From IMG/VR virus record IMGVR_UViG_3300045988_153208: 32,291 nt of DNA; one strand, given 5' to 3'. Position numbers and translations under genes: made by a program. The notes under the pieces are model-generated. The model had not been told where the DNA came from. It did not search any database and worked only from the letters and a program-made list of their open reading frames with translations. This DNA is from a virus. Positions 14,334-31,687 of the stretch are shown here, piece by piece; the stretch's first letter is position 1; every line of letters begins with the position of its first letter.

Positions 14334-14576
14334 ATGTTTGGATATCACGATGATGATAGATGTTATACTGACCTTTGGAGTCCAAGAGATGACCCTAATG
14401 GTTGCGCCGTAGAAAATCGGGCATTTAGTCCTTACGCGAAACACACCCAAGAAGTAGAAGATATTATTGACGCGCTGGTTCATGCGGACGCGGGCAATTA
14501 TACTATTGACGTCGATGATGACCTGTCGCAGTCTGACCTCGACTATATTAAGTCCGAAGTAATGCGACGTAGGTAG
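14334..14576 (+). CDS. hypothetical acidic protein (80 aa; 88 aa if TAG is read through to the TAA at 14600)
   Basis: GGAGAG RBS 9 nt before the ATG. Ends in TAG, with an in-frame TAA 8 codons later. Confidence 0.5.
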   Translation: MFGYHDDDRCYTDLWSPRDDPNGCAVENRAFSPYAKHTQEVEDIIDALVHADAGNYTIDVDDDLSQSDLDYIKSEVMRRR

Positions 14577-14586
14577 GAGGAAGATA

Positions 14587-16020
14587 ATGGCAACAATTAA
14601 GAGTCCCACTCTGTATGTTAAATGCTCTCAGTTTGCGTTTGATGAACTGTTTGAGAAGTTTAATAAGGCAGTCAAGCAAAAGCAATATAAGAAGTTTGAT
14701 TACGATGCTTGGTGTAAGATTCGTAAGACAATTAAGGAACATTGTTCCAAAGTTGATAAGAAAATCATTCCAACATCTATTCATTTTGACGTTGATACAA
14801 GAAAAGTATTCGTTGAAAATGTTCCAAACTTTTATTTTGATGATAAATCCTTCGGTCAGTTTCTTGTCAATGAGTTGACCCCTCAATTTATTATCAAAGT
14901 ATTGATGTGCGGCATTGAGGTAAAAGAAGCCACTGAGTATGTCATTTCTACGAAGCCTACCACAGCAGAATTGAATTGGAAGAGAGAAATGACTACTAAC
15001 GATAAATATTATTACAAGAATATTATTAAGCAGTATAAGGAAATCAATAACTATTACAACGATGTAAATGAAAAAATTTACACCGATGCTGATAAGTATT
15101 CATCTGCTTATGCGACCGCTCAGCCCTCTAATTTGAGTTGGGATGGCATTACAAGTAGCCCCATCGCGGATAATACTGCGACTAAGGCGACTACTAACAC
15201 CGCAAAGCCGGATGGTTTTACTATTGATTGGAATGCGCCTACCAGCACTACTAAGCCTATTAGTGCGGACGATTTGGGTTCTATCGTCAAACTTAATACC
15301 AGGGCTGATGTTATCAAGTTCGAGCCTTGCGCTGACCAGGTAAGCATTTGCTGTGATGACCTGTGTAAAAACTGTAAGAATTACGAAAAAAAGGATAATG
15401 AAGAAAAGGAGAATAAAATGAAGGGTTTCAATTTTGATTTCGGTAAGATTACCAACGATTCCATCCGTATGTCTATGTATGGTATGGCTGTTAAGAATGC
15501 TTCTGGTGTCTGGACTGCCTATGATAAGGGCACTGGCGACCTGATGGACGTCGACGTGTTCAATTTCGATGGTTCCAATTTCCTGTTCAAGATGCCTGTG
15601 GCTATCAAGGACATTGCGGTGGGCGATGTCGTTATCCACGCACGCAAGCCTATGTTCGTTATCAGCAAGACCGAGGCCGGCGATCTGATTGCTATTGACC
15701 CCGTGGCTGGTGAAAAGAAGACTATTATGCCTGTCCGCTCTCCCTTTGGGTTCAATTTCGCGACCAAGATTATCTCTCTGTTTGATAGTCTGATGCCCAC
15801 TACTGAGGCTCCTTCTGCGGATAACCCCTTTGGTTCTCTGTGGATGCTGATGCTGCTGGATGGCAAGTCCGATATGAAGGATATGCTGATTCCTATGATG
15901 CTGATGAACCAGGCCAATGGTTCTACCAATGCGTTTAACCCTATGATGCTGATGCTGATGAATGATGGCGATATGAAGGATATGGCTATCCCTCTGATGC
16001 TGATGAATCAGGTTAAGTAA
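14587..16020 (+). CDS. large hypothetical protein (477 aa) with Thr-rich linker and C-terminal Met-rich tandem repeat
   Basis: AGGAGG RBS. ORF track. C-terminal two-copy repeat ...LMLLDGKSDMKDMLIPMMLMNQ / LMLMNDGDMKDMAIPLMLMNQ. Confidence 0.65.
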   Translation: MATIKSPTLYVKCSQFAFDELFEKFNKAVKQKQYKKFDYDAWCKIRKTIKEHCSKVDKKIIPTSIHFDVDTRKVFVENVPNFYFDDKSFGQFLVNELTPQFIIKVLMCGIEVKEATEYVISTKPTTAELNWKREMTTNDKYYYKNIIKQYKEINNYYNDVNEKIYTDADKYSSAYATAQPSNLSWDGITSSPIADNTATKATTNTAKPDGFTIDWNAPTSTTKPISADDLGSIVKLNTRADVIKFEPCADQVSICCDDLCKNCKNYEKKDNEEKENKMKGFNFDFGKITNDSIRMSMYGMAVKNASGVWTAYDKGTGDLMDVDVFNFDGSNFLFKMPVAIKDIAVGDVVIHARKPMFVISKTEAGDLIAIDPVAGEKKTIMPVRSPFGFNFATKIISLFDSLMPTTEAPSADNPFGSLWMLMLLDGKSDMKDMLIPMMLMNQANGSTNAFNPMMLMLMNDGDMKDMAIPLMLMNQVK

Positions 16021-16057
16021 TATATCCCCCAGTTTGTTGATTTCATCCCCCAAAAAT

Positions 16058-16101
16058 AAGGGTCTTACCTCTCGGCGGTAAGACCCTTATTTGATTTTTT
16101 T
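16058..16101 (+). terminator. rho-independent terminator fused to promoter copy 8
   Basis: AAGGGTCTTACC / GGTAAGACCCTT with a 7-nt loop, then ATTTGATTTTTTT. Confidence 0.65.
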
Positions 16102-16130
16102 ATAAATTTATAATATAATATATATATAAG
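16091..16130 (+). promoter_or_regulatory. sigma70-type promoter cassette copy 8 (identical to copy 2)
   Basis: TTGATT 16091-16096, 17-nt spacer, TATAAT 16114-16119, ATATATATAAG. Confidence 0.65.
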
Positions 16131-16153
16131 ATGAAGAAAGGAAATGATACAAA

Positions 16154-17890
16154 ATGAATCTGTATGACGCCCTGACTACGGAAGATATTGACCTGATTCG
16201 TGCTTACATTGAGGCATATGGCGGCAAGAATGATGAATATGATGCGACTGGTTGTTATGTTCAGTCTATGCCGAACACGATGGCGCCGTGGGCAGAGGCT
16301 AAGGAGCGTCTCTATACGATGTTCGGTGAGCAGCTTATTCTGAGGAAGTCCTTTAACTTCTCTAAGGGCGTCGATGAGTTGGCCGATGAAATCAATGAGG
16401 CTCGTTATCGCAGAGATGGTAATGGTATCTCTGAGATGGACACTTTGATTCGTGAAAATTTCTGGCCTCGGAATATTTATTCCGCTTTGGGTCTGGATGA
16501 TGACCAGGCAGATAATATTTGTCGGCTGATTGATTCCTATATGCTGGCTAATAATTCTTGGAGCCGCACTGAGTTCACTGTGAATGGCGTTCGTGTGAAT
16601 ACTGGTGCTAAGGCTGTGAAGATTCTGGGTAAGATTCTCGCCACTTTTGAGAACCCTGAGTGGAACGAAATCTTTGAGCAGTTCCGCCTGGAACATTCTC
16701 GTATTCTCAATCAAAAGAAGCTGACTGGCGAACTGTGCCTGTCTATTCATCCTCTGGATTATATGACTATGAGTGATAACAACGAGGGCTGGGACAGTTG
16801 TATGAGCTGGCAGGCTTGCGGTGATTATCGTCAGGGCACCGTAGAGATGATGAATTCTCCTTGTGTCGTGGTGGCATATCTGCGGAATCCCGGCTATGAG
16901 ATGGACATTCCCGATGGTCATTGGAACAGCAAGAAGTGGCGTTGCCTGTTTGTTGTCGACCGCGATGTTATTGTTAATATTCGCGAGTATCCCTATTGTA
17001 ATGATGAACTGGTGGGCGAATGCCTGAATTGGTTGAAGAGCCTGGCCGAGAAGAACCTTCATTATCAGTATCGTGATACTACCTGTCGGTATCGCGCAGA
17101 TTGCGAGAATACTGTTCAGGTTGGCGAGAAGAAAATTCCTGTGAATTTTTCTACTGGTCATATGTATAGCGATTTCCGTTTTGAGCATCTGATGTATCTG
17201 AATACCACTCTGCCGGATAATATTAACATTTATTACTCTGGTGTGAGTGAGTGCCTGGGTTGCGGTAAGACTTCCAGCGGCTATGATGAAAGTCTCCTGA
17301 GTTCAAATGATTTGATTTGTCATAGCTGTAATGGCGATGGCGAGTGCGAAGAGTGCGGTCGTTATTGCGATGCTGAGGAATTGTATGAGGTTGAGGGCCG
17401 TTTGATTTGTCAGGATTGCTATGATAACGAGACTGCTGAGTGCCCCGTTTGTCAGCGTGAGGTTGACCTCCACAATGAAAAGTGTGAAGATTGGCGCGAC
17501 CAATTGCCTGACCCTGAGCGCCATTTCATCCGTAGCGATAATACATTTGAAATCGCATTCAATGGCTATATCACTCATCTTCACTTTGATACTCTGTGTG
17601 AGTATTGTGCTAAGAAGATTCGTTCTGGCGAAATCAAGGACTACGGCCCTGTTGAGCAATTTGTTGATAAGTGGAACATTTCCCATACCTATCTGGATTT
17701 GGAGAAGATGACTGAGGACGCTGTTCAGGACGTTATTCCTTGGAATGGTAAGGGCTGGATGGAGCACCGCAGAGACAATCCTAACCGCAGTTGGGTAAGT
17801 CTCAAAACAGGATATTGCGATTTTGATAAGGGTTATTTCATTGATGAAGACGGGAACGAAATCGAAAATCCTCGCAAAATCTTCTTTTAA
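16154..17890 (+). CDS. large hypothetical protein (578 aa), Cys-rich C-terminus; paralog of 21387..22850
   Basis: ORF track. Shares LCLSIHPLDYMTMS, WNSKKWRC, YPY and multiple CxxC blocks with the 487-aa protein. Confidence 0.7.
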   Translation: MNLYDALTTEDIDLIRAYIEAYGGKNDEYDATGCYVQSMPNTMAPWAEAKERLYTMFGEQLILRKSFNFSKGVDELADEINEARYRRDGNGISEMDTLIRENFWPRNIYSALGLDDDQADNICRLIDSYMLANNSWSRTEFTVNGVRVNTGAKAVKILGKILATFENPEWNEIFEQFRLEHSRILNQKKLTGELCLSIHPLDYMTMSDNNEGWDSCMSWQACGDYRQGTVEMMNSPCVVVAYLRNPGYEMDIPDGHWNSKKWRCLFVVDRDVIVNIREYPYCNDELVGECLNWLKSLAEKNLHYQYRDTTCRYRADCENTVQVGEKKIPVNFSTGHMYSDFRFEHLMYLNTTLPDNINIYYSGVSECLGCGKTSSGYDESLLSSNDLICHSCNGDGECEECGRYCDAEELYEVEGRLICQDCYDNETAECPVCQREVDLHNEKCEDWRDQLPDPERHFIRSDNTFEIAFNGYITHLHFDTLCEYCAKKIRSGEIKDYGPVEQFVDKWNISHTYLDLEKMTEDAVQDVIPWNGKGWMEHRRDNPNRSWVSLKTGYCDFDKGYFIDEDGNEIENPRKIFF

Positions 17891-17910
17891 CTGGTTCAAT
17901 ATAAAGTATT

Positions 17911-17951
17911 TTGATTTTTTTAAAAAAAAATTATATAATATATATGTAAGG
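17911..17951 (+). promoter_or_regulatory. sigma70-type promoter cassette copy 9
   Basis: TTGATT 17911-17916, 17-nt spacer, TATAAT 17934-17939, ATATATGTAAGG. Confidence 0.6.
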
Positions 17952-18001
17952 TAAAGGAAGACCTTACAACAAAAATAAATTTTTGAAAGAGGTATACAAA
18001 T

Positions 18002-18412
18002 ATGAAGACTACCGATCGCACCACTAAGCGTGATTTTTATGAGGCTATTATCAAGGCTATGGAGACTGGCGAGACTGATGTCGAGCCCACCAAGATTATC
18101 GAGTTCTGTGAGAATGAGATTGCCCTGCTGGATAAGAAGGCCGACAAGGCTAAGGAGCGCGCCGCTGCTAAGAAGGCCGAGGCTGACGAACTGATGGATA
18201 AGGTGTATGCCGTCCTGAGCGATACCGAGTTTATGACTCGTAATGCTGTGATGGATGCCCTGGGTGATATGCCCGAGGACGTGACCATCAGCAAGGTCGG
18301 CGCAAGATTGACCAAGCTTGTTAATAGTCAGGCTGTGGAAAAGTCTGAGCTGACTGTTGCGAACGCTGAGGGTAAGAAATCCAAGTGTATGGGTTATAGA
18401 AAATTGGGTTAA
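18002..18412 (+). CDS. hypothetical Lys/Ala-rich protein (136 aa)
   Basis: AGAGGT RBS. ORF track. Higher GC than its neighbours. Confidence 0.6.
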   Translation: MKTTDRTTKRDFYEAIIKAMETGETDVEPTKIIEFCENEIALLDKKADKAKERAAAKKAEADELMDKVYAVLSDTEFMTRNAVMDALGDMPEDVTISKVGARLTKLVNSQAVEKSELTVANAEGKKSKCMGYRKLG

Positions 18413-18446
18413 TCCCATAACTTTGAGTGTCAAAATTGATTAATTA

Positions 18447-18489
18447 TTCCTCCTCATATTTCATAGTAAATATGAGGAGGAATTTTTTT
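18447..18489 (+). terminator. 15-bp hairpin + T7 (terminator that also sequesters the RBS of the downstream HEG)
   Basis: TTCCTCCTCATATTT / AAATATGAGGAGGAA with loop CATAGT. The right arm contains GAGGAGGAA, the SD for the ATG at 18490. Confidence 0.6.
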
Positions 18490-19284
18490 ATGATTGGTAT
18501 TTATAAAATTACAAATAAAATTAATGGCAAGAGTTATATTGGATAGAGTATTCGTATTGAACAACGTTGGCGAGACCATCAAATGAGAAGTCAAACTTCT
18601 TTAATTCATCGAGCCTTAGAAAAATATGGTGTCGAAAATTTTACATTCGAAGTATTAGAACAGTGTAATCAAGCAGATTTAGACGAACGAGAAAAATATT
18701 GGATTACCTATTATAATACATTTGAAGATGGCTATAATTTAACTCGCGGTGGAGGAGAAGGGTTTAAATATGACGTTGAAGAAGTTTATCAAACATTTCT
18801 CCAATTGTAGAATTTAGCACAAACCGCTCGTAAAATAGGTTGTCATGAAACTACTGTGAGAAATATTCTTCGAACTTATGATATTAATTTATCTATAAAG
18901 CAAGAAGATAAACCAGTAGAATAGATTGACCCTAAAACATTGTAGGTAATTCGAGAATTTAAAACGGTCCAAGACGCCGCTGATTCAGTTAATTTAAATC
19001 GTGCCTCTATTTCTAAGGTTATTAATGGACATGGAATGACGGCAGGAGGATATATTTGGCGCGCTAAGGGAGATACAGAAAAAATTCTTAAAGATTCAAA
19101 TAAACGTTGGAAATGCCCAGTAGAACAAATGGATTTACAAGGAAATATATTAGCAGAATATGAATCAGCAGCAGAAGCGGCTAGACAAATAGGACATCCT
19201 GGTCGAGGACGCCAAATTATATCTGTTTGTAGAGGGAATAATATGACCTCTTATGGTTATAGATGGCGTTATAAAAAGATTTAA
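18490..19284 (+). CDS. GIY-YIG homing endonuclease with C-terminal NUMOD/IENR-like DNA-binding repeats (264 aa; 4 in-frame TAG read as sense)
   Basis: MIGIYKITNKINGKSYIG-TAG-SIRIEQRWRDH matches GIY..YIGQS..R..H with the TAG at the conserved Gln. NLTRGGGEG. Helix-turn-helix-like repeats downstream. No TAA or TGA for 264 codons. Confidence 0.8.
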
Positions 19285-19304
19285 TCGGGACACACCGATT
19301 CTTG

Positions 19305-19340
19305 AATGAGGTTAGGATTTAATTCCTAACCTCATTTTTC
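19305..19340 (+). terminator. rho-independent terminator
   Basis: AATGAGGTTAGGA / TCCTAACCTCATT around a TTTAATT loop, then TTTTT. Confidence 0.6.
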
Positions 19341-19423
19341 TATGGGTCTGCTCCGGGCGAGGTCGGAGACAAAGACCGAAAACCCAAATTAAAATATGGC
19401 TTACTAATTTTTTAACCAATTTA

Positions 19424-19452
19424 TTGACATATATTAAAAAATATGCTATAAT
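19424..19452 (+). promoter_or_regulatory. consensus sigma70 promoter TTGACA-N17-TATAAT (not of the cassette type)
   Basis: TTGACA 19424-19429, exactly 17-nt spacer, TATAAT 19447-19452. ATG at 19477. Confidence 0.6.
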
Positions 19453-19476
19453 AAAAACAAAAAAGGATTTATTATA

Positions 19477-20289
19477 ATGAGATATTGTTTGAAATATATA
19501 AAAAATCAATATATCCAAGAGGCTGATGAAATTCTATTCGCAGATAATCATGGTGATGATATGATTGACGCAATAGAGCAATATCCTCACGCTGATTTTA
19601 TTTATGAGGTCGTTGATGAGCCTGATTGGGATTATTTAAAAATGATTAATAGCAAACTAAATGAAACTGATCGGCGATTAATCATTTCTACTCTTTATTC
19701 TAAAATCGCCCAAGAGGCAAAAGAAAATGGATTGGCGTTTTATTTTTCATTTGCGATTAATAACTTCGCAGACTTACAAGCCGTGTGTGAATTAGGAGCT
19801 TGTTATGCGCTTATTACAGCTCCAATCTTTTTCGAGCAGGATAAATTGGAAAAATTTTCCATTCCACTTCGCTATCGTGCCAATGTTGCATATAGTGGTA
19901 TTTTGACTACAAAGCGCGTAAATGCGAATGCGGCATTTATTCGTCCTGAGGATGTAGACCTTTATGATTATGATACAACAACCATTGAGTTTGGCGCAAC
20001 CCATACTGAACAAGAAGAGGTTTTATACCGTTTATATAAATATAATAAGCGTTGGCCGGGCGATTTGAATATGGTAATTACAACTCTTAATGTCGTGCCC
20101 GCGCCGATGAATCGAATGATTGGGCCAGACTTCGGCAAGCATAGATTGAATTGCGGCCAACGATGCGTAGAAGGCGATACTCTTCAATGTCATTTATGCC
20201 ATAATCAGATGGCATTAGCAAATCCGTCAAAAATTAAGGATTATATAGACAATGTAATTTTACCAGTTAGACAAGAAAAGATAAATTGA
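19477..20289 (+). CDS. hypothetical protein (270 aa)
   Basis: ORF track. Low GC (about 35%). No recognisable motif. Confidence 0.6.
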   Translation: MRYCLKYIKNQYIQEADEILFADNHGDDMIDAIEQYPHADFIYEVVDEPDWDYLKMINSKLNETDRRLIISTLYSKIAQEAKENGLAFYFSFAINNFADLQAVCELGACYALITAPIFFEQDKLEKFSIPLRYRANVAYSGILTTKRVNANAAFIRPEDVDLYDYDTTTIEFGATHTEQEEVLYRLYKYNKRWPGDLNMVITTLNVVPAPMNRMIGPDFGKHRLNCGQRCVEGDTLQCHLCHNQMALANPSKIKDYIDNVILPVRQEKIN

Positions 20290-20326
20290 CAATTTTATTT
20301 AAATATTATATAATATTTATATAAAA
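20286..20326 (+). promoter_or_regulatory. sigma70-type promoter cassette copy 10 (degenerate: TTGACA, ATTTATATAAAATAAG tail)
   Basis: TTGACA 20286-20291, 17-nt spacer, TATAAT 20309-20314. Overlaps the stop of the upstream gene. Confidence 0.55.
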
Positions 20327-20346
20327 TAAGAAAGGAAGATTGATAG

Positions 20347-21387
20347 ATGCGAGTGATGAAAGACTCTGAGTATCTAGCATTTAAGCAGTTAGCTAAGCTT
20401 ACTCAAGATCAAATGATTAAGGCTATGCGTGCGGTGTTAGAGGCTCGTTATACCGATATTATCGCAACAAAGGAATATATTGTAGCCAAGGGAGATATTC
20501 CTATCGGATTGGTTGCCCATATGGATACAGTATTCCCGCTTCCTCCTACTGAAATTTATTATGATACTACACAGAATGTTGTGTGGAGTCCGCAGGGTCT
20601 TGGAGCTGATGACCGCGCAGGTGTATTCGCGATTCTTCAGATTTTGAAGACTACAAAATTGCGTCCGCATATTATTTTGACAACTGATGAAGAGAAGGGC
20701 GGATGGGGCGCATACGCCCTTGTTGAACAGCATCCAGATTTTCCGTTTGATGATTTGAAATATCTGATTCAGTTGGACCGCCAGGGCGCGAATGATTGTG
20801 TGTTTTATGATGGTATCAATGAAGATTTTATCCGTTATGTATCTTCTTTTGGTTTCGTAGAGCATATTGGTTCATTCAGCGATATTAGTATTCTGTGTCC
20901 ATTCTGGGATGTGTGCGGTGTCAATCTTTCTGTCGGTTATAAAAATGAGCATAGTCTCATTGAAACATTAAATATTAGCCATTTGTTCGATACCATCCAA
21001 AAGGTGAAGAGAATGTTAATGGTGAAGGAAATTCCTGACTTTGAGTGGAAGGAAAAATACTATCCTTATTTCACTAATGGGTATCCTCTGGATGATGACA
21101 TTGATGAGTATAGCGCGGCTTATGGTTATAATTGGGTAAATGATAAACGCTCTGTTGATGCTTATACAGTAATTTGTCATAATTGTAAGAAGCCATTTTA
21201 TAATTATGAAACATTCCCCACTAAGAAAATTGATGGTGGAACTATGTTCTTGTGCCCCGATTGTGTGGGCGACCATGCTAATTGGTGCGATTGTTGTGGC
21301 GAAGCATTTGAGCGTACACCGGAAAATGCCGGGGCTACTCTTTGCCCTGACTGTGCGAAAATTGAGAAGATTAAGGTTAAAGGTTAA
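20347..21387 (+). CDS. MH-clan (M20/M28/M42-like) metallopeptidase-like domain fused to C-terminal zinc-ribbon (346 aa)
   Basis: VAHMDTV (HxD), GLGADDRAG (GxxDD), TTDEEKGGWGA (EE) in canonical order. The last His motif is not evident. C-terminal CHNC...CPDC...CDCCG...CPDC. Confidence 0.6.
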   Translation: MRVMKDSEYLAFKQLAKLTQDQMIKAMRAVLEARYTDIIATKEYIVAKGDIPIGLVAHMDTVFPLPPTEIYYDTTQNVVWSPQGLGADDRAGVFAILQILKTTKLRPHIILTTDEEKGGWGAYALVEQHPDFPFDDLKYLIQLDRQGANDCVFYDGINEDFIRYVSSFGFVEHIGSFSDISILCPFWDVCGVNLSVGYKNEHSLIETLNISHLFDTIQKVKRMLMVKEIPDFEWKEKYYPYFTNGYPLDDDIDEYSAAYGYNWVNDKRSVDAYTVICHNCKKPFYNYETFPTKKIDGGTMFLCPDCVGDHANWCDCCGEAFERTPENAGATLCPDCAKIEKIKVKG

Positions 21388-22850
21388 TGAAGAGTTATAA
21401 TTTAGATGAACTAAAACAGCAAGTCAAACACGTATTAGAGTATAGTCAGGGTATTTATGATGTGAGTGAGGACGCTCTTGATAATATGATGAGTGAATGG
21501 GAGCGTAATAAAGCACGATTCATTAATGATTTTATGGGCGGCAAACTCATTGTGGAGTTGTCAGGCAAACGCTCCTTTCATTTGGGAGAAAAGGCAAAAC
21601 TCAAGAAATACAATGATTTTTTGGATTATGTTGTTCTGCGAATGAATAATTATGAGTTATGCCGATTTATTGAAGCGCAGGGCGAAGAAGGATTTTATGA
21701 GAACACCGTAAAAACTGGTTGGGACCATACTAAGAGTGATACATTTATTTCGCCGGGATCTAAACTAATACGAGCATTTAAATATTTCATTGAAGATAAG
21801 GATTTGCTGGAAACTGTTCAGAATGAGGCCAGTCGTATTATTCAAGGAGACTGTATCGAAGGCATTCTTTGTATATCAGTCCATCCTCTTGATTACCTCA
21901 GTTTAAGTGAAACTACATATAACTGGCGTTCTTGCCATGCTCTTGATGGCGAATATCGCGCTGGTGATTTGAGTTATTTGATGGATGGTAGCACATTTAT
22001 CTGTTATCTGAGAGGCGATGATAAACAAAACCTCCCTTCATTTCCCGATGATTTGCTCTGGAATAGTAAGAAGTGGCGTTGTTTGGGCTTCTTGGCTGAT
22101 GATGAAAATGGTATCATTATGGGCCGTCCTTATCCCTATGAGGCCGCAGATATTATTAATGAACTTCGTTGGGAAGTGTTTAATAGAGAATGGAATTTGG
22201 GCCTTGGTAGTTGGCGCGCAGACGCCATTCGTTCGGTTCAAGATCGCCTAACTAACTGGGATGAAGATTTGAATCGTACTTATATCCCTTGGAATGGCCG
22301 TCTTGTAGAACTTGATAAAACTGTTCATGATTGTCCAAGTCCTACTCATTATAATGATATTCTTTTATCCAGTTGTTATTTGCCTATTTATGCTCGTGGT
22401 AAAGGATATTTTGGCAAGAATGATTGGAAGAAGGTTCAGTATCATATTGGACACTCAGTAATGTGTATTCATTGTAATTCTGAGTATGTGTCTCCTGGTG
22501 ATGGCACGATGATGTGCCGTTCTTGTGAGATTAGATATGGCAATTCTGACAGTGATGATATTGTTTGTTGTGAGAATTGCGGTTGTCGTTTATGGTATGA
22601 AGACGCAATTGTTGTTGGAGACAATGGAAATTATCTTTGTGATGAATGTGCTAGTAGAATCACTAAAACTTGTAGAGATTGTGGTAATCCATATTACATT
22701 GATGATTTAACATATCATAAAGACGATGAAGATGAAAACGGCGGATATTATCTATGTGGATGGTGCGAGCAAGATAGGCAGGACACGGAAGAAATTGCAG
22801 AAGATGAATCTTCTACTACTACTATCAGTTTTGATGAGTTTGATCTGTAG
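21387..22850 (+). CDS. large hypothetical Cys-rich protein (487 aa; +32 aa if terminal TAG is read through to the TAA at 22949), paralog of 16154..17890
   Basis: TAATG coupling. ILCISVHPLDYLSLS, WNSKKWRC, YPY and CxxC blocks shared with the 578-aa protein. Ends in TAG. Confidence 0.7.
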   Translation: MKSYNLDELKQQVKHVLEYSQGIYDVSEDALDNMMSEWERNKARFINDFMGGKLIVELSGKRSFHLGEKAKLKKYNDFLDYVVLRMNNYELCRFIEAQGEEGFYENTVKTGWDHTKSDTFISPGSKLIRAFKYFIEDKDLLETVQNEASRIIQGDCIEGILCISVHPLDYLSLSETTYNWRSCHALDGEYRAGDLSYLMDGSTFICYLRGDDKQNLPSFPDDLLWNSKKWRCLGFLADDENGIIMGRPYPYEAADIINELRWEVFNREWNLGLGSWRADAIRSVQDRLTNWDEDLNRTYIPWNGRLVELDKTVHDCPSPTHYNDILLSSCYLPIYARGKGYFGKNDWKKVQYHIGHSVMCIHCNSEYVSPGDGTMMCRSCEIRYGNSDSDDIVCCENCGCRLWYEDAIVVGDNGNYLCDECASRITKTCRDCGNPYYIDDLTYHKDDEDENGGYYLCGWCEQDRQDTEEIAEDESSTTTISFDEFDL

Positions 22851-22968
22851 TCATTAAATACAAGACCTATATATTATATACACGATGAAAATGGCGAATG
22901 GATACCTATTACGCGAGTGCGTCAAATACCTCCGCCAGAAAGTGAATAATTATTTAAATATTTAAGGA

Positions 22969-23268
22969 GTGATTATTATAGCACGCGGAAGTATTGCTAA
23001 GGAAAATGTCGCTAAAATACTTGCCGAATCATTTGGTAAGGATTGGATTGGCGAGTCTGATAAGAAGTATTATGTTTGGGCTAATGATGGCGGTGAGCGC
23101 GTTCAAATCGCTATTAGTTTGACCTGTCCAAAGAATCCAGTAGGAGCCGCAATATCTCCTACAAGTAATGAAATCAATTTTGAGGCCGAGCCTGAGAGAC
23201 CTGTAATGGAGATTACTCCTGATGAACAGGAAATGATTGACAGACTTAAGGCTGAATTGAATCTTTAA
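22969..23268 (+). CDS. hypothetical protein (about 99 aa), start codon unresolved
   Basis: Protein-like open frame at about 40% GC. The only in-frame start is a GTG overlapping AAGGAG, and there is no ATG. Confidence 0.35.
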   Translation: MIIIARGSIAKENVAKILAESFGKDWIGESDKKYYVWANDGGERVQIAISLTCPKNPVGAAISPTSNEINFEAEPERPVMEITPDEQEMIDRLKAELNL

Positions 23269-23273
23269 TATAA

Positions 23274-23307
23274 TGAGATAAGTCATTTGACTTATCTCAT
23301 TTTTTTT
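23274..23307 (+). terminator. rho-independent terminator at the early/late boundary
   Basis: ATGAGATAAGT / ACTTATCTCAT with a 5-nt loop, then T8. Confidence 0.65.
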
Positions 23308-23315
23308 GTTATAAT
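23307..23315 (+). promoter_or_regulatory. possible extended -10 promoter (TGTTATAAT) for the AT-rich gene block
   Basis: TGnTATAAT immediately after the terminator T-tract. AAGGAG RBS and ATG at 23348. No -35. Confidence 0.3.
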
Positions 23316-23347
23316 TTAAATAGAATTAGATTATAAGGAGATTTAAA

Positions 23348-24049
23348 ATGTATAATCAAATTATTGAAGAATTAGAAGTTCTTAAATAGAATTTTGATAG
23401 TGAAGATATTGTATCATATCAATTACTTTTAATTAAAATTAAGAAAATTATTGATTTGATTAATGATAAACAACTTGAGGAAGCAGATAAAAGCAAATTA
23501 TCTAATTATATTCGAGATTATTTAGCAAGTTTGCATTTAAATAGAATTTTCACAATTTCTGATTTGAATGAATTATTTATTCCAGAAGTGAAAGATTTAG
23601 ATATTGGTAATAAAAATATTTATATTACAATTTTTAATTTATTCGTGGAAGAATTATCTGATGTAGATAATATTTTTTCTCAAAAACTTAAATACTGTAT
23701 TACAAATATGATTTCTAGAATTGCTGCTTCTGTAGATGAAACAATGGTTACAGAAGATAAAACTCAAGAAACTGTAATTAATGAACCTGTTCAAATTATT
23801 CCAACTATAAATACAGTAAATACTAATTCATTCGATTTGGATATTGATATTACTAATAAAAATTATTTGAAAGAATATATTATGCGTAAAAATTTAAAAC
23901 CTTACAGATGTGATATTTGTGGATTAAGTTCCTGGCAAAACAATCCTCTTATGCTATATTTATACAGTAAAAATCATATTTATTCAAATAAAAATTTAGA
24001 AAATTTGATGTTTTTATGCCCTAATTGCTATTCTCAGATTGGAGAGTAA
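23348..24049 (+). CDS. HNH-like endonuclease-domain protein (233 aa; 1 in-frame TAG)
   Basis: AAGGAG RBS. C-terminal CDICG...LYLYSKNHIYSNKNLENLMFLCPNCY resembles HNH (CxxC...H..N...CxxC) with Tyr where the last His normally sits. Confidence 0.55.
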
Positions 24050-24052
24050 TTT

Positions 24053-25240
24053 ATGTATTATAATTCTTATAATTAGAATTATTTTAATGAATTAAATAAA
24101 ATATTCAATAAATTTGATACTAATAATATTAATGATTATTATAATTTATTTAAATTAATATATGATATATATTTTAATGAAAATGTATTTATAATTGTTA
24201 ATGATGATATAAAATATCAATTAGAATCAAATTTAAAATTACTTATTAAAAAAAATAATTGGTTTATAGATTTTGAACAAACTGAAAAAAATATATTAAT
24301 TTCATTATTTATTATAATTACTTAGAAAATTAATTTTGGAAATTATTATCAAATTAATAATACATTAAAACAATAGATTGAATCATTATTATTAGATAAA
24401 AATTTAATTAATGAAAAAATGATTCATGATAGTAAAAATGTTTTTCATTTAGTTGATAGTTTTCCTGAAAATGAAAGTATGATTAAATTTTTTAAGCAAT
24501 ATAATATTGATATTATGAATTAGGAATTTTTAACTATTGGTAATACGAAAATTCCTAATTTTTATTTAAAACAAAAAAATAAAATGATAGATCATTATTA
24601 TGAATTTTGCCATTTATTATTTAAAATTTATAGTCCAATCTTATATTATGGTGTTTCATTTGAAGAAGGATATGAATATAAAATAACTAATAAAGATATT
24701 GTATTTGATTGTGGCGGAAATATGGGACTATTCGCGCTATACTGTGCTTCAAAAGGCGCGCAAGTATATTGTTTTGAGCCTATGTCTTATATTAGAGATT
24801 TTTTATATGAGAGTCAAAAATTATATCCTGATTTAATCCATATTATTCCTTGTGGAGTGTTTAATAGAAATTAGGAACAATATTTTTCTCAAACCTATAA
24901 TCCAGGAGCTGGATCGAATTCAATATTTCATGAATTAGAATATACATCTGATAGATTATATAAAGAAAAATGTAAGTTAATTACATTAGATTCATTTAGT
25001 TAGAATAATCATATTATTCCTACATTTATTAAAGCAGATATTGAAGGGTCTGAAGCACAAATGCTTGAAGGCGCTTCACAAATTTTACAAACATATAAAC
25101 CAACTATGAATATTTGTTTAAATCATCGGACGGAAGACCAATATAATATTCCTACCCTTATTTATAATATCAATTCTAATTATTCATTTTATTATTTTAT
25201 TGAAGGAGAAATACATTCTAAATTTGTATTGTGTAAATAA
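24053..25240 (+). CDS. FkbM-family SAM-dependent methyltransferase (395 aa; 6 in-frame TAG)
   Basis: VFDCGGNMGLFALYCASKGAQVYCFEP (motif I) and IKADIEGSEAQMLEGA (FkbM signature). No TAA or TGA for 396 codons at about 22% GC. Confidence 0.7.
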
Positions 25241-25242
25241 AT

Positions 25243-26196
25243 ATGCCAAATATTATTTTAACAGAATATTGTAATCTTCAATGCCCTTACTGTTTTGCTA
25301 GTAAAATGATTGAAGAAAAAACAGATGATACTAAAAATATTTCTCTTGAATAGTTAGATATGATTTTAAAATGGTTATTACCTTCAGCAACAAATTTAGA
25401 TCGGATTGGATTAATTGGAGGAGAACCTACTTTACATCCTTAGTTTAGAGAGATATTAGGTAGAATAAATTCATTTAATGAATTTACAAATACTTCTTCA
25501 ATAGTATTTACGAATGGAATTAATTTAAGTGAATTTTTATCTGCTATTGGACCAAATATGTCAATTTTAATTAATGTAAATAAATTGACTGGTAAATCAT
25601 TAAATAAACTTAATAGTGTATTAGATGAAATTAATTATTTAAGTTGGTTTAAAATTGATAAAGTTATTTTAGGATGTAATTTATATCAAAATGAAAATGA
25701 TTATTCTTATTTTTGGAATGTAGTTGATAAATATCCAGATATTTTAAGAATAAGAATGTCTATTACTGCACCCAATAGCAAAGAATTAAGAGTAAATAAA
25801 GAATTGTATTATACTATTATGAAACCTATATTATTACAATTTTTAGAAGAAACTAAAAAACGTGATATAAAAATTTCATATGATTGTAATTAGATTCCGT
25901 TATGTTTATTAAACAATGAAGAATAGAATTTAATAAATCAATTAGGGGAATTAAATAGTTTTTGTGAGCCCGTTATAGATATTACTCCAGATTTTAAAGC
26001 TACTTGCTGTTTTGGTGTTTATGATAATCCCATTCAATGTAATGATTTTAATAATATCGAAGAATTAACTAGATATTTTAAAAATCAAATAGTAATAAAA
26101 ACTATAAATAATAACACTTCCATGTGCAAAGATTGTAAAAAATTACAACTTGCTCAATGTCAAGGAGGATGTTTATCATTTTCTAATGTTGGGTAA
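25243..26196 (+). CDS. radical SAM enzyme with SPASM/twitch-like C-terminal Cys cluster (317 aa; 4 in-frame TAG)
   Basis: CNLQCPYC (CxxxCxxC) at residues 10-17. IGLIGGEPTLHP. C-terminal CCFGV...C...CKDCKKLQLAQCQGGC. Translationally coupled to the methyltransferase gene. Confidence 0.8.
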
Positions 26197-26254
26197 GTAT
26201 AAGTAATAAAGTTTTATAATTTTTTAATTCTAAAAAAGAAGGAGGAATTTTTTT

Positions 26255-26692
26255 ATGGCAAATATTACTTATGAATTAATTTTTAAATTTGCTTCTGGTA
26301 AAGAGGTAAATTTTATCGATGAAGAACATACATTTTCTATTGTAGAAGATTATCGTTCTCCAGTTCTTTTAACCCCTCAAATGTTTGGTATTGATGATTT
26401 ACGTGAGTATTATGCATTATTATTAATTGATGGTAAGCCTATGGAGGATTATGCATCAAATTATTGTAATTTTAAAAATTTTGGTAATTCTATTGTTGAT
26501 TTGCTTAATAATAAAGATACTATTTCAGAAATTATTTTAAAAGATATTGATACTAAAGGAGAATATTTTCATATAAATTCTGATCAATTAGTAGGTATTG
26601 AAGCTGGCGGAGGAACTGATAGAGGTTTTGATAATATAATGGTATACCGCATACAAATTTATTATAAAAAAGTTGGAAAAATAGGTGAGTAA
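26255..26692 (+). CDS. hypothetical protein (145 aa), no in-frame TAG
   Basis: Strong AAGGAGG RBS. ORF track. Confidence 0.6.
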   Translation: MANITYELIFKFASGKEVNFIDEEHTFSIVEDYRSPVLLTPQMFGIDDLREYYALLLIDGKPMEDYASNYCNFKNFGNSIVDLLNNKDTISEIILKDIDTKGEYFHINSDQLVGIEAGGGTDRGFDNIMVYRIQIYYKKVGKIGE

Positions 26693-26694
26693 TA

Positions 26695-27315
26695 ATGGGA
26701 GCTAATGCTACATCTGCGGGTAATTTAGTTAAACTATCTGATTTAGATGCGCTATATTTACGTTTATATAATTTAAAAGTAGCTCATATTAATGATGCAG
26801 ATTAGATTAATAAACCTGCTCTAACAGTTCCACCCAAAAGTAGTGGATTAATCCAAGGTAATAAAGTAGAAGTTTCAACCGCTAAAATTGCTACATTAAA
26901 ATCTGAACTAGCAAATTTAGCTCAATCAAAATGGTATTAGTCTAATACGGAGAATACTATAGTAACAATGACAGATTTTAGTACAAATATTAAAGTACCT
27001 AATGTAGGAGATTTATTAAAAAGCGTAGATTTTAATTTAATTGAAACTGCTATTACCTCTGCTGAAACTATTATACCTACTTATTCAAATAAATATAATG
27101 CTCGTTATAGTTTTCGTTATAGTGGTCATTATAGTTCTGATTATGGTACCTGTTATGATAGTCGTTATGGTACTTGTTATAGTAATTGTTATGGAGGCCG
27201 TTATAGTACTCGATATGGTACTTGTTATAGTTGTTATGGTTGTTATGGTTGTTATCGCAGATATAGTTCAAGGTATGGTAGATATGCTGCAAAAAATGTT
27301 CAAATTAGATGTTAA
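26695..27315 (+). CDS. Cys/Tyr/Gly/Ser/Arg-rich tandem-repeat peptide, candidate radical-SAM substrate (206 aa with 2 TAG from the 26695 ATG; 115 aa if it starts at the 26968 ATG)
   Basis: GGTGAG RBS and TAATAATG coupling at 26695. No TAA or TGA for 91 codons upstream of the track ORF 26968..27315. C-terminal 75 residues are [Y-x-x-X] repeats (YSFR, YSGH, YGTC x3, YSNC, YGGR, YSTR, YSC, YGC, YGC ...). Confidence 0.55.
27100..27290 (+). repeat. degenerate 9-12-nt tandem DNA repeats (CGTTATAGT / TGTTATGGT) encoding the YxxX peptide repeats
   Basis: Visible periodicity. All six reading frames are open across it, which gives spurious ORFs at 27041..27340 (+) and 27077..27292 (-). Confidence 0.7.
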
Positions 27316-27326
27316 AGGTGAATTAA

Positions 27327-28763
27327 ATGTTAATAAATAAATTAGATTTAATGGGATCCAGCAGCTGTGATTTAAAATGTTCTTATTGTTATATTACAAA
27401 AAATTGTTCATTTTATAATTATGATTCCGCCGTTCAAGAAGCTTGGGAAACTGGATCTTATTTAACTACTATTAAACAAGTTTTTTCGAAATTGGATGCA
27501 GACCCTACTCAAATAAAAGATTTAGAATTTTGGGGAGGAGAACCTACATTACATATTAAAGAAATGGCTTCTCAAGGAAAAGCATTAGGATAGTTATTTC
27601 CAGAAGTTGATTTTGTATTAATCCCAACTAATTGGTATTAGATTAATATGCAAGCCTTAGTAGATTTTATTTACAATTTTAATGATGGTATCTCTCCTCG
27701 TGGAAGTAAATCAAAAAATGTTAATTTTCATTTACAATTATCCATTGATGGGCCTCCTGGAGATTTTAATACTTATGGTCATAAAGTACCTTGGGATACT
27801 TATAAAAAACAATTTGATGATTTTTGTTTTTATTTAAAAGAAAAAGAAAATTCTGGAAGAGAATTAAAAAATATTAATATTATTTTCGCTATTAGTGGAA
27901 CCTCTTAGCAAAAATATATTTTAAAAAATTTAAATACTTTAGATAAAATAAAAGAATTTCAAGAATATATTAAAAAAGTTTGTAAATATGTAAATGATGA
28001 ACTAAAACAATTTAAAACTATAGATATATTTTTAGGAACTCCAATTTGGACTCCTACGGTAGCTATTCCAGATTCGACAACCACTGAAGAAGCATTAGAA
28101 TTAAATAAAATTGCACTAATGTTAGAATATAGCGATTATGTTAATGGAATAAAACCTTATAGTATTGATGCTAATGAGATTCAAGGGTTTCATGCAACTT
28201 ATGGAGAATTAAATGTATTGGATAGAAATCACGAATGTCCAGAGTCTAATGAACATGCAATTACATTAATGCCTGATGGAACTATTGCTGAATGTCCCTG
28301 TACCTTTTTATAGAATTTAGATTCTTATAAACAAGAATTATTAAATAATAAATAGTATTGGGAATATAAATCTTGTTTAATTAGAGATGGTAGTTTTTAT
28401 AATCCATTATTAGGTGATGAAAAACTTGATAATTACCATAGTTGGTATGTTTATGGTGGTGGATTTATTGGGACTAATTCTACTTATGCTAATTTAAATT
28501 TAAATATGGCTTATGAAATGGCTTTATCAAGATAGATTGATTATAACTATGCATTAAATCCAGAGTTATTAATGAGACATTATATGGCTATTTTTACAAC
28601 TGCTGAATGCTATCGTGAAAATGTTAATGTGACTCATAATCATTTTTTAACAGATCATAACATGTTTAGGCGTTGGTATAATGGTTATGCCGAATTAGGA
28701 TATAAAGATCATCGAGAGAAGATTAAAAAAATTATGGAAAATGTATTAAAAGGAGAAAATTAA
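27327..28763 (+). CDS. radical SAM enzyme with SPASM/twitch-like domain (478 aa; 6 in-frame TAG)
   Basis: AAGGTGA RBS. SSCDLKCSYC (CxxxCxxC). EFWGGEPTLH. C-terminal HECPESNEHAITLMPDGTIAECPC resembles the SPASM pdGdv..C element. Confidence 0.8.
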
Positions 28764-29947: not shown

Positions 29948-29961
29948 GGAGGGGAAAAATA

Positions 29962-30231: not shown

Positions 30232-30280
30232 TATAAAAATCGTCTTTTTGATTTTAGCAATTATAAAGAGGAGCGGCTTT

Positions 30281-31684: not shown

Positions 31685-31687
31685 TAA

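What the first reader, a model, noticed from the sequence alone, without database searches (positions are those of the whole stretch)
18447..19340. Free-standing GIY-YIG homing endonuclease whose Shine-Dalgarno is locked in a 15-bp terminator hairpin, and which itself uses recoded TAG
The right arm of the perfect hairpin at 18447-18482 contains GAGGAGGAA, the RBS for the ATG at 18490. The following T7 makes it an intrinsic terminator for the upstream unit. In T4-like phages, homing-endonuclease RBSs are similarly occluded in early read-through transcripts so the nuclease is only translated from later, internally initiated mRNAs. Here translation additionally needs TAG suppression (4 in-frame TAG), giving two layers of temporal restriction. 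The cassette has lower GC than its flanks. It sits between the unit of promoter copy 9 and a differently built TTGACA-N17-TATAAT promoter, consistent with a mobile insertion.
Basis: partly seen in the sequence, partly recalled or inferred. Interest (0 to 1): 0.55.

Follow-up and report, generated by a model that had tools for sequence, protein, structure and literature searches.

The report
Self-silenced mobile nuclease gene in phage
This is a mobile "homing" nuclease gene inserted at the very end of a phage gene, held almost silent by an RNA hairpin that hides its ribosome-binding site and by four TAG codons that this phage lineage reads as glutamine; each brake is known from other phages, and finding them combined is new but not surprising.

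Summary
Positions 18446-18483 form a perfect 16-bp hairpin whose 3' arm holds GAGGAGG, followed by T7 and the ATG of a 264-codon GIY-YIG/NUMOD homing endonuclease gene. The ORF has four in-frame TAG and no TAA or TGA.

New evidence:
- **Insertion.** An ~875-bp cassette (18404-19278) is absent from two relatives with 92-96% identical flanks and present at the same site in four. The ORF ends on the target gene's own last codon and stop.
- **Hairpin.** Nine HEG lineages (45-93% aa identity) sit at the same site. Each has a different perfect 13-20 bp hairpin pairing the Shine-Dalgarno sequence: 12 of 14 pairs change compensatorily, and 0 of ~126 neighbouring ORFs have one.
- **TAG is Gln.** TAG aligns with conserved Gln and swaps with CAA between orthologues. 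A close relative encodes tRNA(CUA).

Unproven parts: no internal promoter was found, the U-tract is missing in two lineages, and the suppressor tRNA sits behind the same sigma-70-like promoter type as the TAG-free genes. "Late-only" expression is therefore not established. RBS-hiding hairpins are known for T4 endonucleases, and recoded stops in an endonuclease are reported for Agate phages. This is a new variant of a known kind, of moderate interest.

The parts
17911..17939 (+). Promoter of the upstream unit (TTGATT-N17-TATAAT). It is the ninth copy of a ~60-nt promoter repeat (17907-17967) and the only visible source of transcripts entering the cassette.
   Evidence: (repeat families D1-D5).
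18002..18412 (+). Target gene: a conserved 136-aa protein of unknown function with no in-frame TAG. Its last codons were replaced by the insertion (..GYRKLG* here, ..GYRKI* in endonuclease-less relatives).
   Evidence: Homologues precede the endonuclease in every lineage.
18404..19278 (+). Inserted cassette of ~875 bp, absent from relatives L001 and L002. Its boundaries are ambiguous by a few bases because TATAGAAAA (left) and TATAAAAAG (right) form an imperfect direct repeat.
18421..18446 (+). Conserved box immediately 5' of the hairpin (consensus CTTnnnGGTCAAAATTGATTAAT). It is carried by the cassette and its role is unknown; a promoter or operator is possible.
   Evidence: Alignment A2 across 11 sequences. 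There is no other copy in the window.
18446..18483 (+). Perfect 16-bp hairpin (-21.5 kcal/mol). The 3' arm contains the Shine-Dalgarno GAGGAGG (18474-18480) and the 5' arm contains the anti-SD CCTCCTC.
   Evidence: Covariation across lineages.
18483..18489 (+). T7 run between stem and ATG. It is the U-tract of a terminator-like site and also the SD-to-ATG spacer.
   Evidence: Caveat: the same spacer occurs at gene 26255 without a hairpin.
18490..19284 (+). GIY-YIG / NUMOD homing endonuclease ORF of 264 codons. TAG (read as Gln) occurs at 18544-18546, 18808-18810, 18922-18924 and 18943-18945.
19279..19284 (+). ATT TAA: the resident last codon and stop of the target gene, now used as the end of the endonuclease ORF.
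   Evidence: The variants AAGATTTAA and AAAATCTAA are each shared between endonuclease-bearing and endonuclease-less genomes.
19305..19340 (+). Resident intrinsic terminator of the upstream unit (13-14 bp stem plus T5). It is present unchanged in endonuclease-less relatives and now lies 3' of the endonuclease gene.
19424..19452 (+). TTGACA-N17-TATAAT promoter (with TG) of the downstream gene 19477-20289. It is resident, not part of the insertion.

Best explanation
An ~875-bp free-standing GIY-YIG homing-endonuclease cassette is inserted inside the last two codons of a conserved 136-aa phage gene, upstream of that gene's own terminator. The cassette gives the interrupted gene a short new tail and stop. 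The endonuclease ORF runs out of the cassette and ends on the gene's original last codon and stop.

No promoter is detectable in the cassette. Its 5' end carries a long perfect hairpin whose 3' arm is the endonuclease's Shine-Dalgarno sequence, followed by a U-run and the AUG.

Inferred mechanism: transcripts from the upstream promoter mostly end at this hairpin and U-tract. In those that read through, the hairpin hides the ribosome-binding site. Any ribosome that does start stops at codon 19 unless the phage's amber-suppressor tRNA inserts Gln at TAG. Together these brakes would hold the nuclease at a trickle and restrict it to cells where the phage's code change is active, while leaving expression of the neighbouring genes undisturbed.

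Shown: the identity of the gene, the insertion and its junctions, selection for SD pairing, TAG read as Gln, and a suppressor tRNA in the lineage. Inferred: termination at the hairpin, translational repression, the timing of expression, and nuclease activity and homing.
For: Identity: Pfam GIY-YIG 8.6e-11 plus NUMOD domains; PHROG 314 at 2e-37; the I-TevI catalytic domain 1MK0 at E = 8e-7, aligned through GIY, YIG, R, E and N; the catalytic columns are invariant in alignment A1.

Mobility:
- Window 15181-18393 and 19276-23316 are contiguous in L001 at 93.7% and 96.5% identity; L002 likewise lacks the cassette.
- The endonuclease is present at the same junction in L005, L006, L007 and L102.
- A second lineage pair shows the same polymorphism: L016 (bearing) versus L198 and L199 (lacking), with 95-98% identical flanks and the insertion again within the last two codons.
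- 23 further IMG/VR loci with a target-gene homologue lack the endonuclease.
- L102 carries the upstream haplotype of the endonuclease-less genomes to within ~15 nt of the junction.

Hairpin:
- Nine lineages each have a different perfect 13-20 bp stem with the SD in the 3' arm, ending 2-9 nt before the ATG.
- 0 of ~126 other ORFs in the same loci have such a hairpin.
- RNAalifold on a plain MAFFT alignment gives 14 pairs, 12 with compensatory changes.
- 93.5% of cells are paired, against 50-61% when partners are slid; the covariation score is 0.72 against 0.15-0.24; 0 of 500 shuffles reach it.
- L008 and L010, near-identical in the 70 nt shown, differ there by an A-T to G-C double change.

Terminator reading: the site is flagged by the consensus scan. 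Its energy equals that of resident terminators. All five other perfect hairpins of at least 13 bp in the window are unit terminators.

TAG as Gln:
- Codon 19 aligns with the nearly invariant Gln of YIGQS; Gln is the consensus residue at codon 145 and common at codons 107 and 152.
- Orthologues have 7-8 TAG, with the extra ones where the window has CAA.
- The endonuclease has 4 TAG in 18 Gln positions, against 1 in 154 in the TAG-free block (Fisher p = 4e-4) and 37 in 113 in the recoded block (p = 0.43).
- tRNA(CUA) is found in relative contig 160359.

Precedents: RBS-sequestering hairpins for I-TevI, I-TevII, I-TevIII, SegB and Aeh1 MobE (PMC2988022); recoded stops enriched in an Agate-phage intron endonuclease (bioRxiv 10.1101/2021.08.26.457843).
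Against: - No transcript, 3'-end, translation or cleavage data exist.
- The U-tract is poor in two lineages (L185 TAATAA, L187 TATTCTAT). Termination is therefore not a universal property of the hairpin.
- The identical GGAGGAATTTTTTTATG start region occurs at gene 26255 without a hairpin. The T7 run alone may simply be a spacer.
- All stems are purely Watson-Crick, which cannot separate RNA-level from DNA-level selection.
- If the SD is always hidden, it is unclear how enough nuclease is made. A release mechanism may exist that I could not see.
- The suppressor tRNA was found in a relative, not in the window.
Confidence: 0.72

Rival explanations
1. T4-type temporal switch. Read-through transcripts are silent, but a cassette-borne promoter, or a processing event such as RNase III cleavage of the long duplex, yields mRNAs that lack the 5' arm. 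The SD is then free and the nuclease is made at a defined, late time.
For: - Direct precedent exists in T4 I-TevI, I-TevII, I-TevIII and SegB, and in Aeh1 MobE (PMC2988022).
- A ~23-nt box ending in TAAT is conserved immediately 5' of the stem across lineages.
- Every loop is AT-rich, with a -10-like hexamer 8-9 nt before the SD core.
- Stems of 15-20 bp are long enough to be RNase III substrates (my own knowledge).
Against: - The consensus scan finds no sigma-70-like promoter on the + strand between 18413 and 18489.
- The box has no other copy in the window and does not resemble the phage's own repeated promoter.
- AT-rich loops are expected in AT-rich palindromes.
- Nothing identifies a late promoter class in this phage.
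Confidence: 0.2
2. The hairpin is only a replacement terminator for the interrupted upstream unit, and its overlap with the SD is incidental.
For: All other long perfect hairpins in the window are terminators. The insertion displaced the resident terminator by ~880 bp.
Against: - All nine lineages place the SD inside the 3' arm at a fixed distance from the ATG, although the stem sequences differ.
- Two lineages keep the SD pairing but lack a U-tract.
- Distant phage GIY-YIG genes also have more structured, SD-paired 5' regions than their neighbours (p = 3.5e-6 and 7e-4).
Confidence: 0.1
3. The palindrome acts at the DNA level, as a protein-binding operator or a cruciform involved in insertion, rather than as an RNA hairpin.
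For: Stems are perfect Watson-Crick, with no G-U pair inside the perfect stems. I-TevI is known to autorepress through an operator upstream of its ORF.
Against: - The only sequence-conserved part of the stem is CCTCC/GGAGG; everything else covaries freely. That is what RNA pairing to an SD predicts, not a protein recognition sequence.
- GIY-YIG homing enzymes bind asymmetric sites as monomers (my own knowledge).
- There is no convincing resemblance between the hairpin and the homing site in other lineages.
Confidence: 0.06
4. The ORF is a decaying pseudogene and its TAGs are genuine stops.
For: There are four in-frame stops under the standard code.
Against: - All four are TAG and none is TAA or TGA. 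They fall at positions where homologues mostly have Gln, and swap with CAA in orthologues.
- The catalytic residues are intact.
- Full-length orthologues are maintained in nine lineages.
- The lineage has a tRNA(CUA).
- The downstream genes hold 37 further in-frame TAGs.
Confidence: 0.02

Closest known systems
I-TevI (phage T4 td intron GIY-YIG endonuclease) and its RBS-sequestering hairpin
   Same: It has the same catalytic fold and motifs (1MK0, E = 8e-7). A consensus SD about 8 nt from the AUG is buried in a very stable hairpin (PMC2988022).
   Different: I-TevI is intron-encoded. It has mapped middle and late promoters, with the late transcript starting inside the structure, and it autorepresses at an operator. 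Its DNA-binding part is a zinc finger plus HTH. It involves no stop-codon recoding, and its hairpin is not a terminator abutting the AUG. Here no internal promoter was found.
Free-standing T4-type endonucleases SegB and MobE (phage Aeh1), and SegD, SegF and MobE terminators
   Same: These are free-standing cassettes between conserved genes. SegB and Aeh1 MobE have RBS hairpins. MobE and SegF carry intrinsic terminators, and segD is boxed in by terminators with no promoter of its own (PMC2988022).
   Different: In T4 the terminators lie inside the 5' coding region and are separate from the RBS hairpin; here one hairpin does both jobs, just 5' of the AUG. MobE is an HNH enzyme. The hosts are Proteobacteria, and there is no recoding.
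Recoded group I intron endonuclease of Agate phages (Borges et al., bioRxiv 10.1101/2021.08.26.457843)
   Same: It is an endonuclease located in an otherwise standard-code early region that is preferentially enriched in the phage's recoded stop codon. The authors propose that this delays nuclease production.
   Different: That case is TGA read as Trp, is intron-encoded, and has no RBS hairpin or terminator described. Here it is TAG read as Gln in a free-standing cassette with an additional RNA-level brake.
I-HmuI / NUMOD-type DNA-binding modules
   Same: The C-terminal half matches PF22083 (I-HmuI NUMOD-like, 9.5e-9) and PF07453 (NUMOD1, 2e-7).
   Different: I-HmuI is an HNH nicking enzyme encoded in an SPO1 intron. 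Only the DNA-binding repeats are shared.

Membership tests
GIY-YIG homing endonucleases | GIY-YIG catalytic domain with the GIY and YIG motifs and the conserved Arg, Glu and Asn | tested here: met
   PF01541 at 8.6e-11, above its cut-off. I-TevI 1MK0 at E = 8e-7 over residues 3-85. G3 I4 Y5, Y16 G18, R26, E68 and N83 are invariant in alignment A1.
GIY-YIG homing endonucleases | Separate sequence-tolerant DNA-binding module | tested here: met
   PF22083 I-HmuI NUMOD-like (9.5e-9) and PF07453 NUMOD1 (2e-7), plus a weak HTH.
GIY-YIG homing endonucleases | Sporadic presence or absence at one fixed genomic site among close relatives | tested here: met
   Two lineage pairs have 92-98% identical flanks with and without the cassette. 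23 more loci have an empty site. The site is the same in nine lineages.
GIY-YIG homing endonucleases | Cleaves the endonuclease-less allele near the insertion site and is copied in by repair (homing) | not testable with these tools
   There is only indirect support: a recombinant flank haplotype in L102.
Free-standing (not intron- or intein-encoded) endonuclease | No self-splicing intron or intein around the ORF | tested here: met
   No Rfam family, including group I and II introns, matches at E <= 1 in 17800-19700 apart from a chance rli40 hit, and none reaches gathering score in the whole window. Only 86 nt of the insert is non-coding. The ORF is not fused in frame to a host protein.
T4-type RBS-sequestering regulation of endonuclease genes | SD buried in a stable hairpin just 5' of the AUG, maintained by selection | tested here: met
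   The stem is -21.5 kcal/mol and the context folds at z = -4.26. 12 of 14 pairs change compensatorily across nine lineages, with 0 of 500 shuffles reaching the covariation score.
T4-type RBS-sequestering regulation of endonuclease genes | A later promoter placed so that its transcript lacks the 5' arm | tested here: inconclusive
   No sigma-70-like site lies in 18413-18489 on the + strand. A conserved box of unknown role lies 5' of the stem. The late-promoter consensus of this phage is unknown.
Intrinsic (rho-independent) terminator | Stable stem-loop, G+C-rich at its base, immediately followed by a U-tract | tested here: met
   16 pairs, 5 of them G-C and all in the nine pairs at the base, then T7. 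The design matches the five resident terminators.
Intrinsic (rho-independent) terminator | U-tract conserved wherever the hairpin is conserved | tested here: inconclusive
   The tail is T-rich in seven of nine lineages and poor in L185 and L187. The same T7 spacer occurs at a hairpin-less RBS.
Intrinsic (rho-independent) terminator | Transcript 3' ends map to the U-tract | not testable with these tools
   No transcriptome data are available.
TAG-to-Gln recoded phage genes (code 15) | In-frame TAG at positions aligned with Gln, interchanging with CAA/CAG in orthologues | tested here: met
TAG-to-Gln recoded phage genes (code 15) | Amber-suppressor tRNA encoded by the phage | tested here: met
   tRNA with anticodon CUA at L226:11869-11942, in contig IMGVR_UViG_3300045988_160359, a relative with 92-96% identical flanks. 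None lies inside the 32-kb window itself.
TAG-to-Gln recoded phage genes (code 15) | Recoded genes are expressed later than standard-code genes | tested here: inconclusive
   The TAG-free block (1 TAG in 154 Gln positions) and the TAG-rich block (37 in 113) are sharply separated. However, the suppressor tRNA and the TAG-rich block both sit behind the same sigma-70-like promoter type as the TAG-free units.

The most novel reading that the evidence does not exclude
The cassette may be a portable, self-insulating module with a three-input gate: terminator read-through, opening or removal of the SD hairpin, and availability of the phage's own amber-suppressor tRNA. The conserved box 5' of the stem, or RNase III cleavage of the 15-20 bp duplex, would be the regulated release. 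On this reading the TAG codons tie nuclease synthesis to the phage's genetic-code switch, so the enzyme appears only once replicating (and possibly co-infecting, endonuclease-less) genomes are present. The cassette's borrowing of the target gene's last codon and stop, together with its own terminator, would make the insertion phenotypically neutral. That would be a previously undescribed way for a selfish element to exploit genetic-code change.
Probability: 0.2. Interest if true: 0.6.

Novelty: new variant of a known kind. Interest (0 to 1): 0.42.

Why it matters
It shows that hiding an endonuclease's ribosome-binding site in a hairpin, so far documented experimentally only in T4-like phages of Proteobacteria, also occurs in an unrelated group of large, TAG-recoded gut phages. 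Here it is backed by unusually clean natural covariation.

It also gives a second, independent case of a homing endonuclease adopting the phage's recoded stop codon, which bears on the idea that code change is used to gate dangerous proteins.

Practically, the family offers matched occupied and empty target sites for testing homing. It also offers a compact 45-nt terminator-plus-RBS-lock element.

The finding that the suppressor tRNA sits behind the same promoter type as standard-code genes is a caution against equating 'recoded' with 'late'.

Tried and rejected
- **GenBank phages.** Megablast of 14500-23000 against GenBank phages gave no match. The best tblastn hit of the endonuclease there is only 29% identical, so no named phage could be used for comparison.
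- **Group I or II intron reading.** I considered it because splicing at AGAAAA|...AAG|ATTTAA would restore GYRKI*. I rejected it for three reasons: no Rfam match, only 86 non-coding nt, and no U at the last exon position.
- **Pseudogene reading.** Rejected (see rival explanations).
- **Promoter inside or before the hairpin.** The consensus scan found nothing. The TTGATT in the box would need a 20-nt spacer to reach any -10-like hexamer. The box is unique in the window.
- **Operator resembling the homing site, as for I-TevI.** The window's hairpin arm and the resident terminator share ATGAGG..AGGA, but I saw no such resemblance in the other lineages' sequences, so I treat it as chance.
- **tRNA search.** Nothing was found in the window or in L001-L007 and L102. 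The suppressor was reached only after two walking steps along a relative's contig.
- **Metagenome scan with the endonuclease alignment.** It returned mostly distant homologues, because TAG breaks tblastn matches.
- **Second GIY-YIG gene.** The gene at L005:20509 also uses TAG but has no SD hairpin. The hairpin therefore belongs to this clade and site, not to every endonuclease in these phages.
- **Structure prediction.** Not run; sequence evidence for the fold was sufficient.
Full report
**1. The observation**

The sequence is as described.
- The left arm TTCCTCCTCATATTT (18447-18461), loop CATAGT and right arm AAATATGAGGAGGAA (18468-18482) form a perfect 15-bp stem. A18446-T18483 extends it to 16 bp.
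- GAGGAGG (18474-18480) lies in the 3' arm. T7 (18483-18489) follows, and the ATG is at 18490.
- The stem is worth -21.5 kcal/mol. The 108-nt context folds at -26.6 kcal/mol, z = -4.26, and none of 200 shuffles is as stable.
- The consensus scan lists the site as terminator-like.
- Perfect hairpins of at least 13 bp are far above chance in the window: six observed against 0.02 expected.
- ORF 18490-19284 has TAG at codons 19, 107, 145 and 152 and no internal TAA or TGA.

**2. What the gene is**

- With TAG read as Gln, the 264-aa product matches Pfam GIY-YIG (8.6e-11), I-HmuI NUMOD-like and NUMOD1. It also matches PHROG 314 'homing endonuclease' (2e-37) and the solved I-TevI catalytic domain (1MK0, E = 8e-7).
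- The GIY, YIG, Arg, Glu and Asn columns are invariant among 32 homologues.
- No intron model matches and only 86 nt of the insert is non-coding, so the gene is free-standing.
- The best match in GenBank phages is 29% identical.

**3. The genome context**

- All genes are on the + strand.
- Units from 85 to 20342 are driven by nine copies plus two variants of a ~60-nt promoter repeat, TTGATT-N17-TATAAT-ATATATATAAG. Five of the promoter sites (2653, 12306, 16091, 19424, 23287) have a perfect hairpin of at least 13 bp just upstream.
- The 33 genes I scored up to 22949 contain 1 TAG among 154 Gln positions.
- The genes from 23348 on contain 37 TAG among 113 Gln positions and have a GC of 0.20-0.24.
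- The endonuclease has 4 TAG among 18 Gln positions. This differs from the first block (Fisher p = 4e-4) and not from the second (p = 0.43). Its CAA:CAG ratio of 13:1 also resembles the second block (74:2) rather than the first (61:92).

**4. TAG is Gln**

- Codon 19 aligns with the nearly invariant Gln of YIGQS. Gln is the consensus residue at codon 145 and a common residue at codons 107 and 152.
- The orthologues in L005-L007 (90% aa identity) have eight TAGs and L102 has seven. The extra ones fall where the window has CAA.
- Walking along the close relative IMGVR_UViG_3300045988_160359, I found a tRNA with anticodon CUA at L226:11869-11942. It lies inside an array of about 30 tRNA genes, roughly 24.5 kb downstream of the endonuclease site.
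- The window itself has no tRNA.

**5. It is an insertion, and where exactly**

- In L001 and L002 (contigs 160359 and 141926) the cassette is missing. In L001, window 15181-18393 and 19276-23316 are contiguous at 93.7% and 96.5% identity.
- There the target gene ends ...MGYRKI*, followed directly by TCGG... and the terminator that corresponds to window 19305-19336.
- In the window the target gene ends ...GYRKLG*, and in L005 ...GYRKIAQ*.
- The endonuclease ORF ends ...RYKKI* (window) or ...RYRKI* (L005) on the resident codons.
  - The variant AAGATTTAA is shared by the window, L102 and the empty L001.
  - The variant AAAATCTAA is shared by L005-L007 and the empty L002.
- The cassette (about 18404-19278) therefore sits inside the last two codons of the target gene, flanked by an imperfect TATAGAAAR direct repeat. 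It supplies a new tail for the target gene and borrows the target gene's stop.
- A second lineage shows the same arrangement. L016 (occupied) and L198/L199 (empty) have 95-98% identical flanks, and the ORF ends on the resident GCT TAA.
- In L182 the tails ..TDEE* and ..EDEE* are duplicated.
- L102 combines the cassette with the upstream haplotype of the empty genomes to within ~15 nt of the junction, which indicates recombination at the site.
- Endonuclease divergence tracks flank divergence: 95.5% to L102 and 87.6% to L005.

**6. The site is fixed across a wide clade, but mostly empty**

- Homologues at 45-57% aa identity all lie directly after a 133-141-aa homologue of the target gene. These are P0005, P0017, P0070, P0004, P0010, P0049 and P0059. 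L022, a further lineage, follows an ORF ending ..AYRKA*.
- Nearly all of them carry TAGs (0-9 per gene).
- 23 further IMG/VR loci with a target-gene homologue have no endonuclease; the gene runs straight into a terminator.
- This is the sporadic, site-specific pattern expected of a homing element.

**7. The hairpin is selected, and selected to pair the SD**

- Each of nine lineages has a perfect 13-20 bp stem whose 3' arm contains GGAGG, GGGGG or GAGGTG and ends 2-9 nt before the ATG. The rest of the stem differs between lineages.
- None of ~126 other ORFs in the same loci has a perfect hairpin of at least 8 bp ending within 14 nt of its ATG.
- RNAalifold on an unfitted MAFFT alignment predicts 14 pairs, 12 with compensatory double changes.
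- 93.5% of cells pair, against 50-61% when partners are slid. The covariation score is 0.72 against 0.15-0.24, and 0 of 500 shuffles reach it.
- L008 and L010, near-identical in the 70 nt shown, differ there by an A-T to G-C double change.
- More distant phage GIY-YIG genes also have more stable 5' regions than their neighbours (-9.85 against -6.24 kcal/mol, p = 3.5e-6). Their SD is fully paired more often (32% against 11%, p = 7e-4).

**8. Terminator or not**

For:
- The site has the form of an intrinsic terminator.
- Its energy is like that of the resident terminators.
- In this genome, long perfect hairpins are otherwise always terminators.
- The insertion moved the resident terminator 880 bp away, so a cassette-borne one would restore the end of the upstream unit.

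Against universality:
- The tail is not U-rich in L185 and L187.
- GGAGGAATTTTTTTATG recurs at gene 26255 with no hairpin.

I conclude that SD occlusion is the conserved function, and that termination is likely in this lineage.

**9. Timing**

- The T4 model needs a promoter that starts inside the hairpin (PMC2988022). None was detectable.
- A conserved box, CTTnnnGGTCAAAATTGATTAAT, lies just 5' of the stem. It is unique in the window and its role is unknown.
- The TAG brake makes translation depend on the suppressor tRNA. In the relative, that tRNA lies 112 nt behind TTGACA-N17-TATAAT-AAATATATAAAG, the same promoter type as the TAG-free units.
- The TAG-rich block is also preceded by TTGACT-N17-TATAAT. 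It encodes radical SAM and FkbM-type enzymes rather than recognisable late genes.
- 'Late' is therefore an inference from other phages (bioRxiv 10.1101/2021.08.26.457843). It is not shown here.

**10. Comparison and verdict**

- Both brakes have precedents. RBS hairpins are known for the T4 and Aeh1 endonucleases. Preferential recoding of an intron endonuclease is reported in Agate phages.
- What is new here:
  - their combination in a free-standing cassette;
  - a single hairpin serving as SD lock and probable terminator directly at the AUG;
  - the strong natural covariation;
  - the borrowing of the target gene's stop codon;
  - the occurrence in large TAG-recoded gut phages (record titles name pig and human gut).
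- This is a new variant of a known kind. Interest is 0.42.

Noticed in passing
window 23317-32291: A very low-GC (0.20-0.24), TAG-rich block that closely related contigs lack at megablast level. It encodes an FkbM-type methyltransferase (24053-25240), radical SAM enzymes (25243-26196, 30281-31684), a CxxxCxxC protein (27327-28763), and a 206-aa protein (26695-27315) with a C-terminal Tyr/Cys/Gly/Arg/Ser repeat (YGTCYDSRYGTCYSNCYGGRYSTRYGTCYSCYGCYGCY). It looks like a peptide-modification island.
   Followed up: partly
window 81-20342 (11 sites, e.g. 2649-2709, 16087-16147, 17907-17967): Nine near-identical copies plus two variants of a ~60-nt promoter repeat, TTGATT-N17-TATAAT-ATATATATAAG. Several copies are preceded by a long perfect hairpin terminator. 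The repeat also recurs many times in the tRNA array of relatives.
   Followed up: partly
L226:11757-11942 (contig IMGVR_UViG_3300045988_160359): An amber-suppressor tRNA (anticodon CUA; by my reading of the sequence, a U1-U72 mismatch and G73) lies 112 nt downstream of a copy of the sigma-70-like promoter repeat. It sits inside an array of about 30 tRNA genes spread over L211 and L226.
   Followed up: partly
window 26238-26257: Gene 26255-26692 has the same 17-nt translation start region as the endonuclease (GGAGGAATTTTTTTATG) but no hairpin; its fold z-score is +1.03.
   Followed up: yes
L005:19255-19325 and L005:20509-20795: There is an odd tRNA-like gene with a 4-nt anticodon loop (ARAGORN 'tRNA-???'; Rfam tRNA 51 bits), where relatives have tRNA-Thr(GGT). 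Just after the tRNA-Glu lies a second GIY-YIG gene that also uses in-frame TAG but has no SD hairpin.
   Followed up: partly
window 16154-17890 and 21387-22949: Two large proteins (578 and 520 aa) appear paralogous. Both have S[IV]HPLDY..W.SC, NSKKWRC and many CxxC pairs, with a weak prokaryotic RING hit. The second contains the only TAG of the 'TAG-free' block (22848), and that TAG is conserved in L001.
   Followed up: no
window 18290-18395 versus L001, L002, L102 and L005: The last ~100 nt of the target gene exist as two haplotypes (..NSQAVEKSEL.. and ..GAEKVEKAEQ..). The endonuclease occurs with both, so recombination has occurred right at the insertion site.
   Followed up: yes
window 15870-16012: A 44-nt direct repeat (86% identical, 99 nt apart) at the 3' end of gene 14587-16020 encodes a repeated DMKDM.IP.MLMNQ motif.
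   Followed up: no
L024:2950-3003: A distant GIY-YIG homologue (34% aa identity) on another phage contig also has a 20-bp perfect hairpin ending in ..CCGGAG, 8 nt before its ATG. This suggests the architecture recurs outside the clade studied.
   Followed up: no
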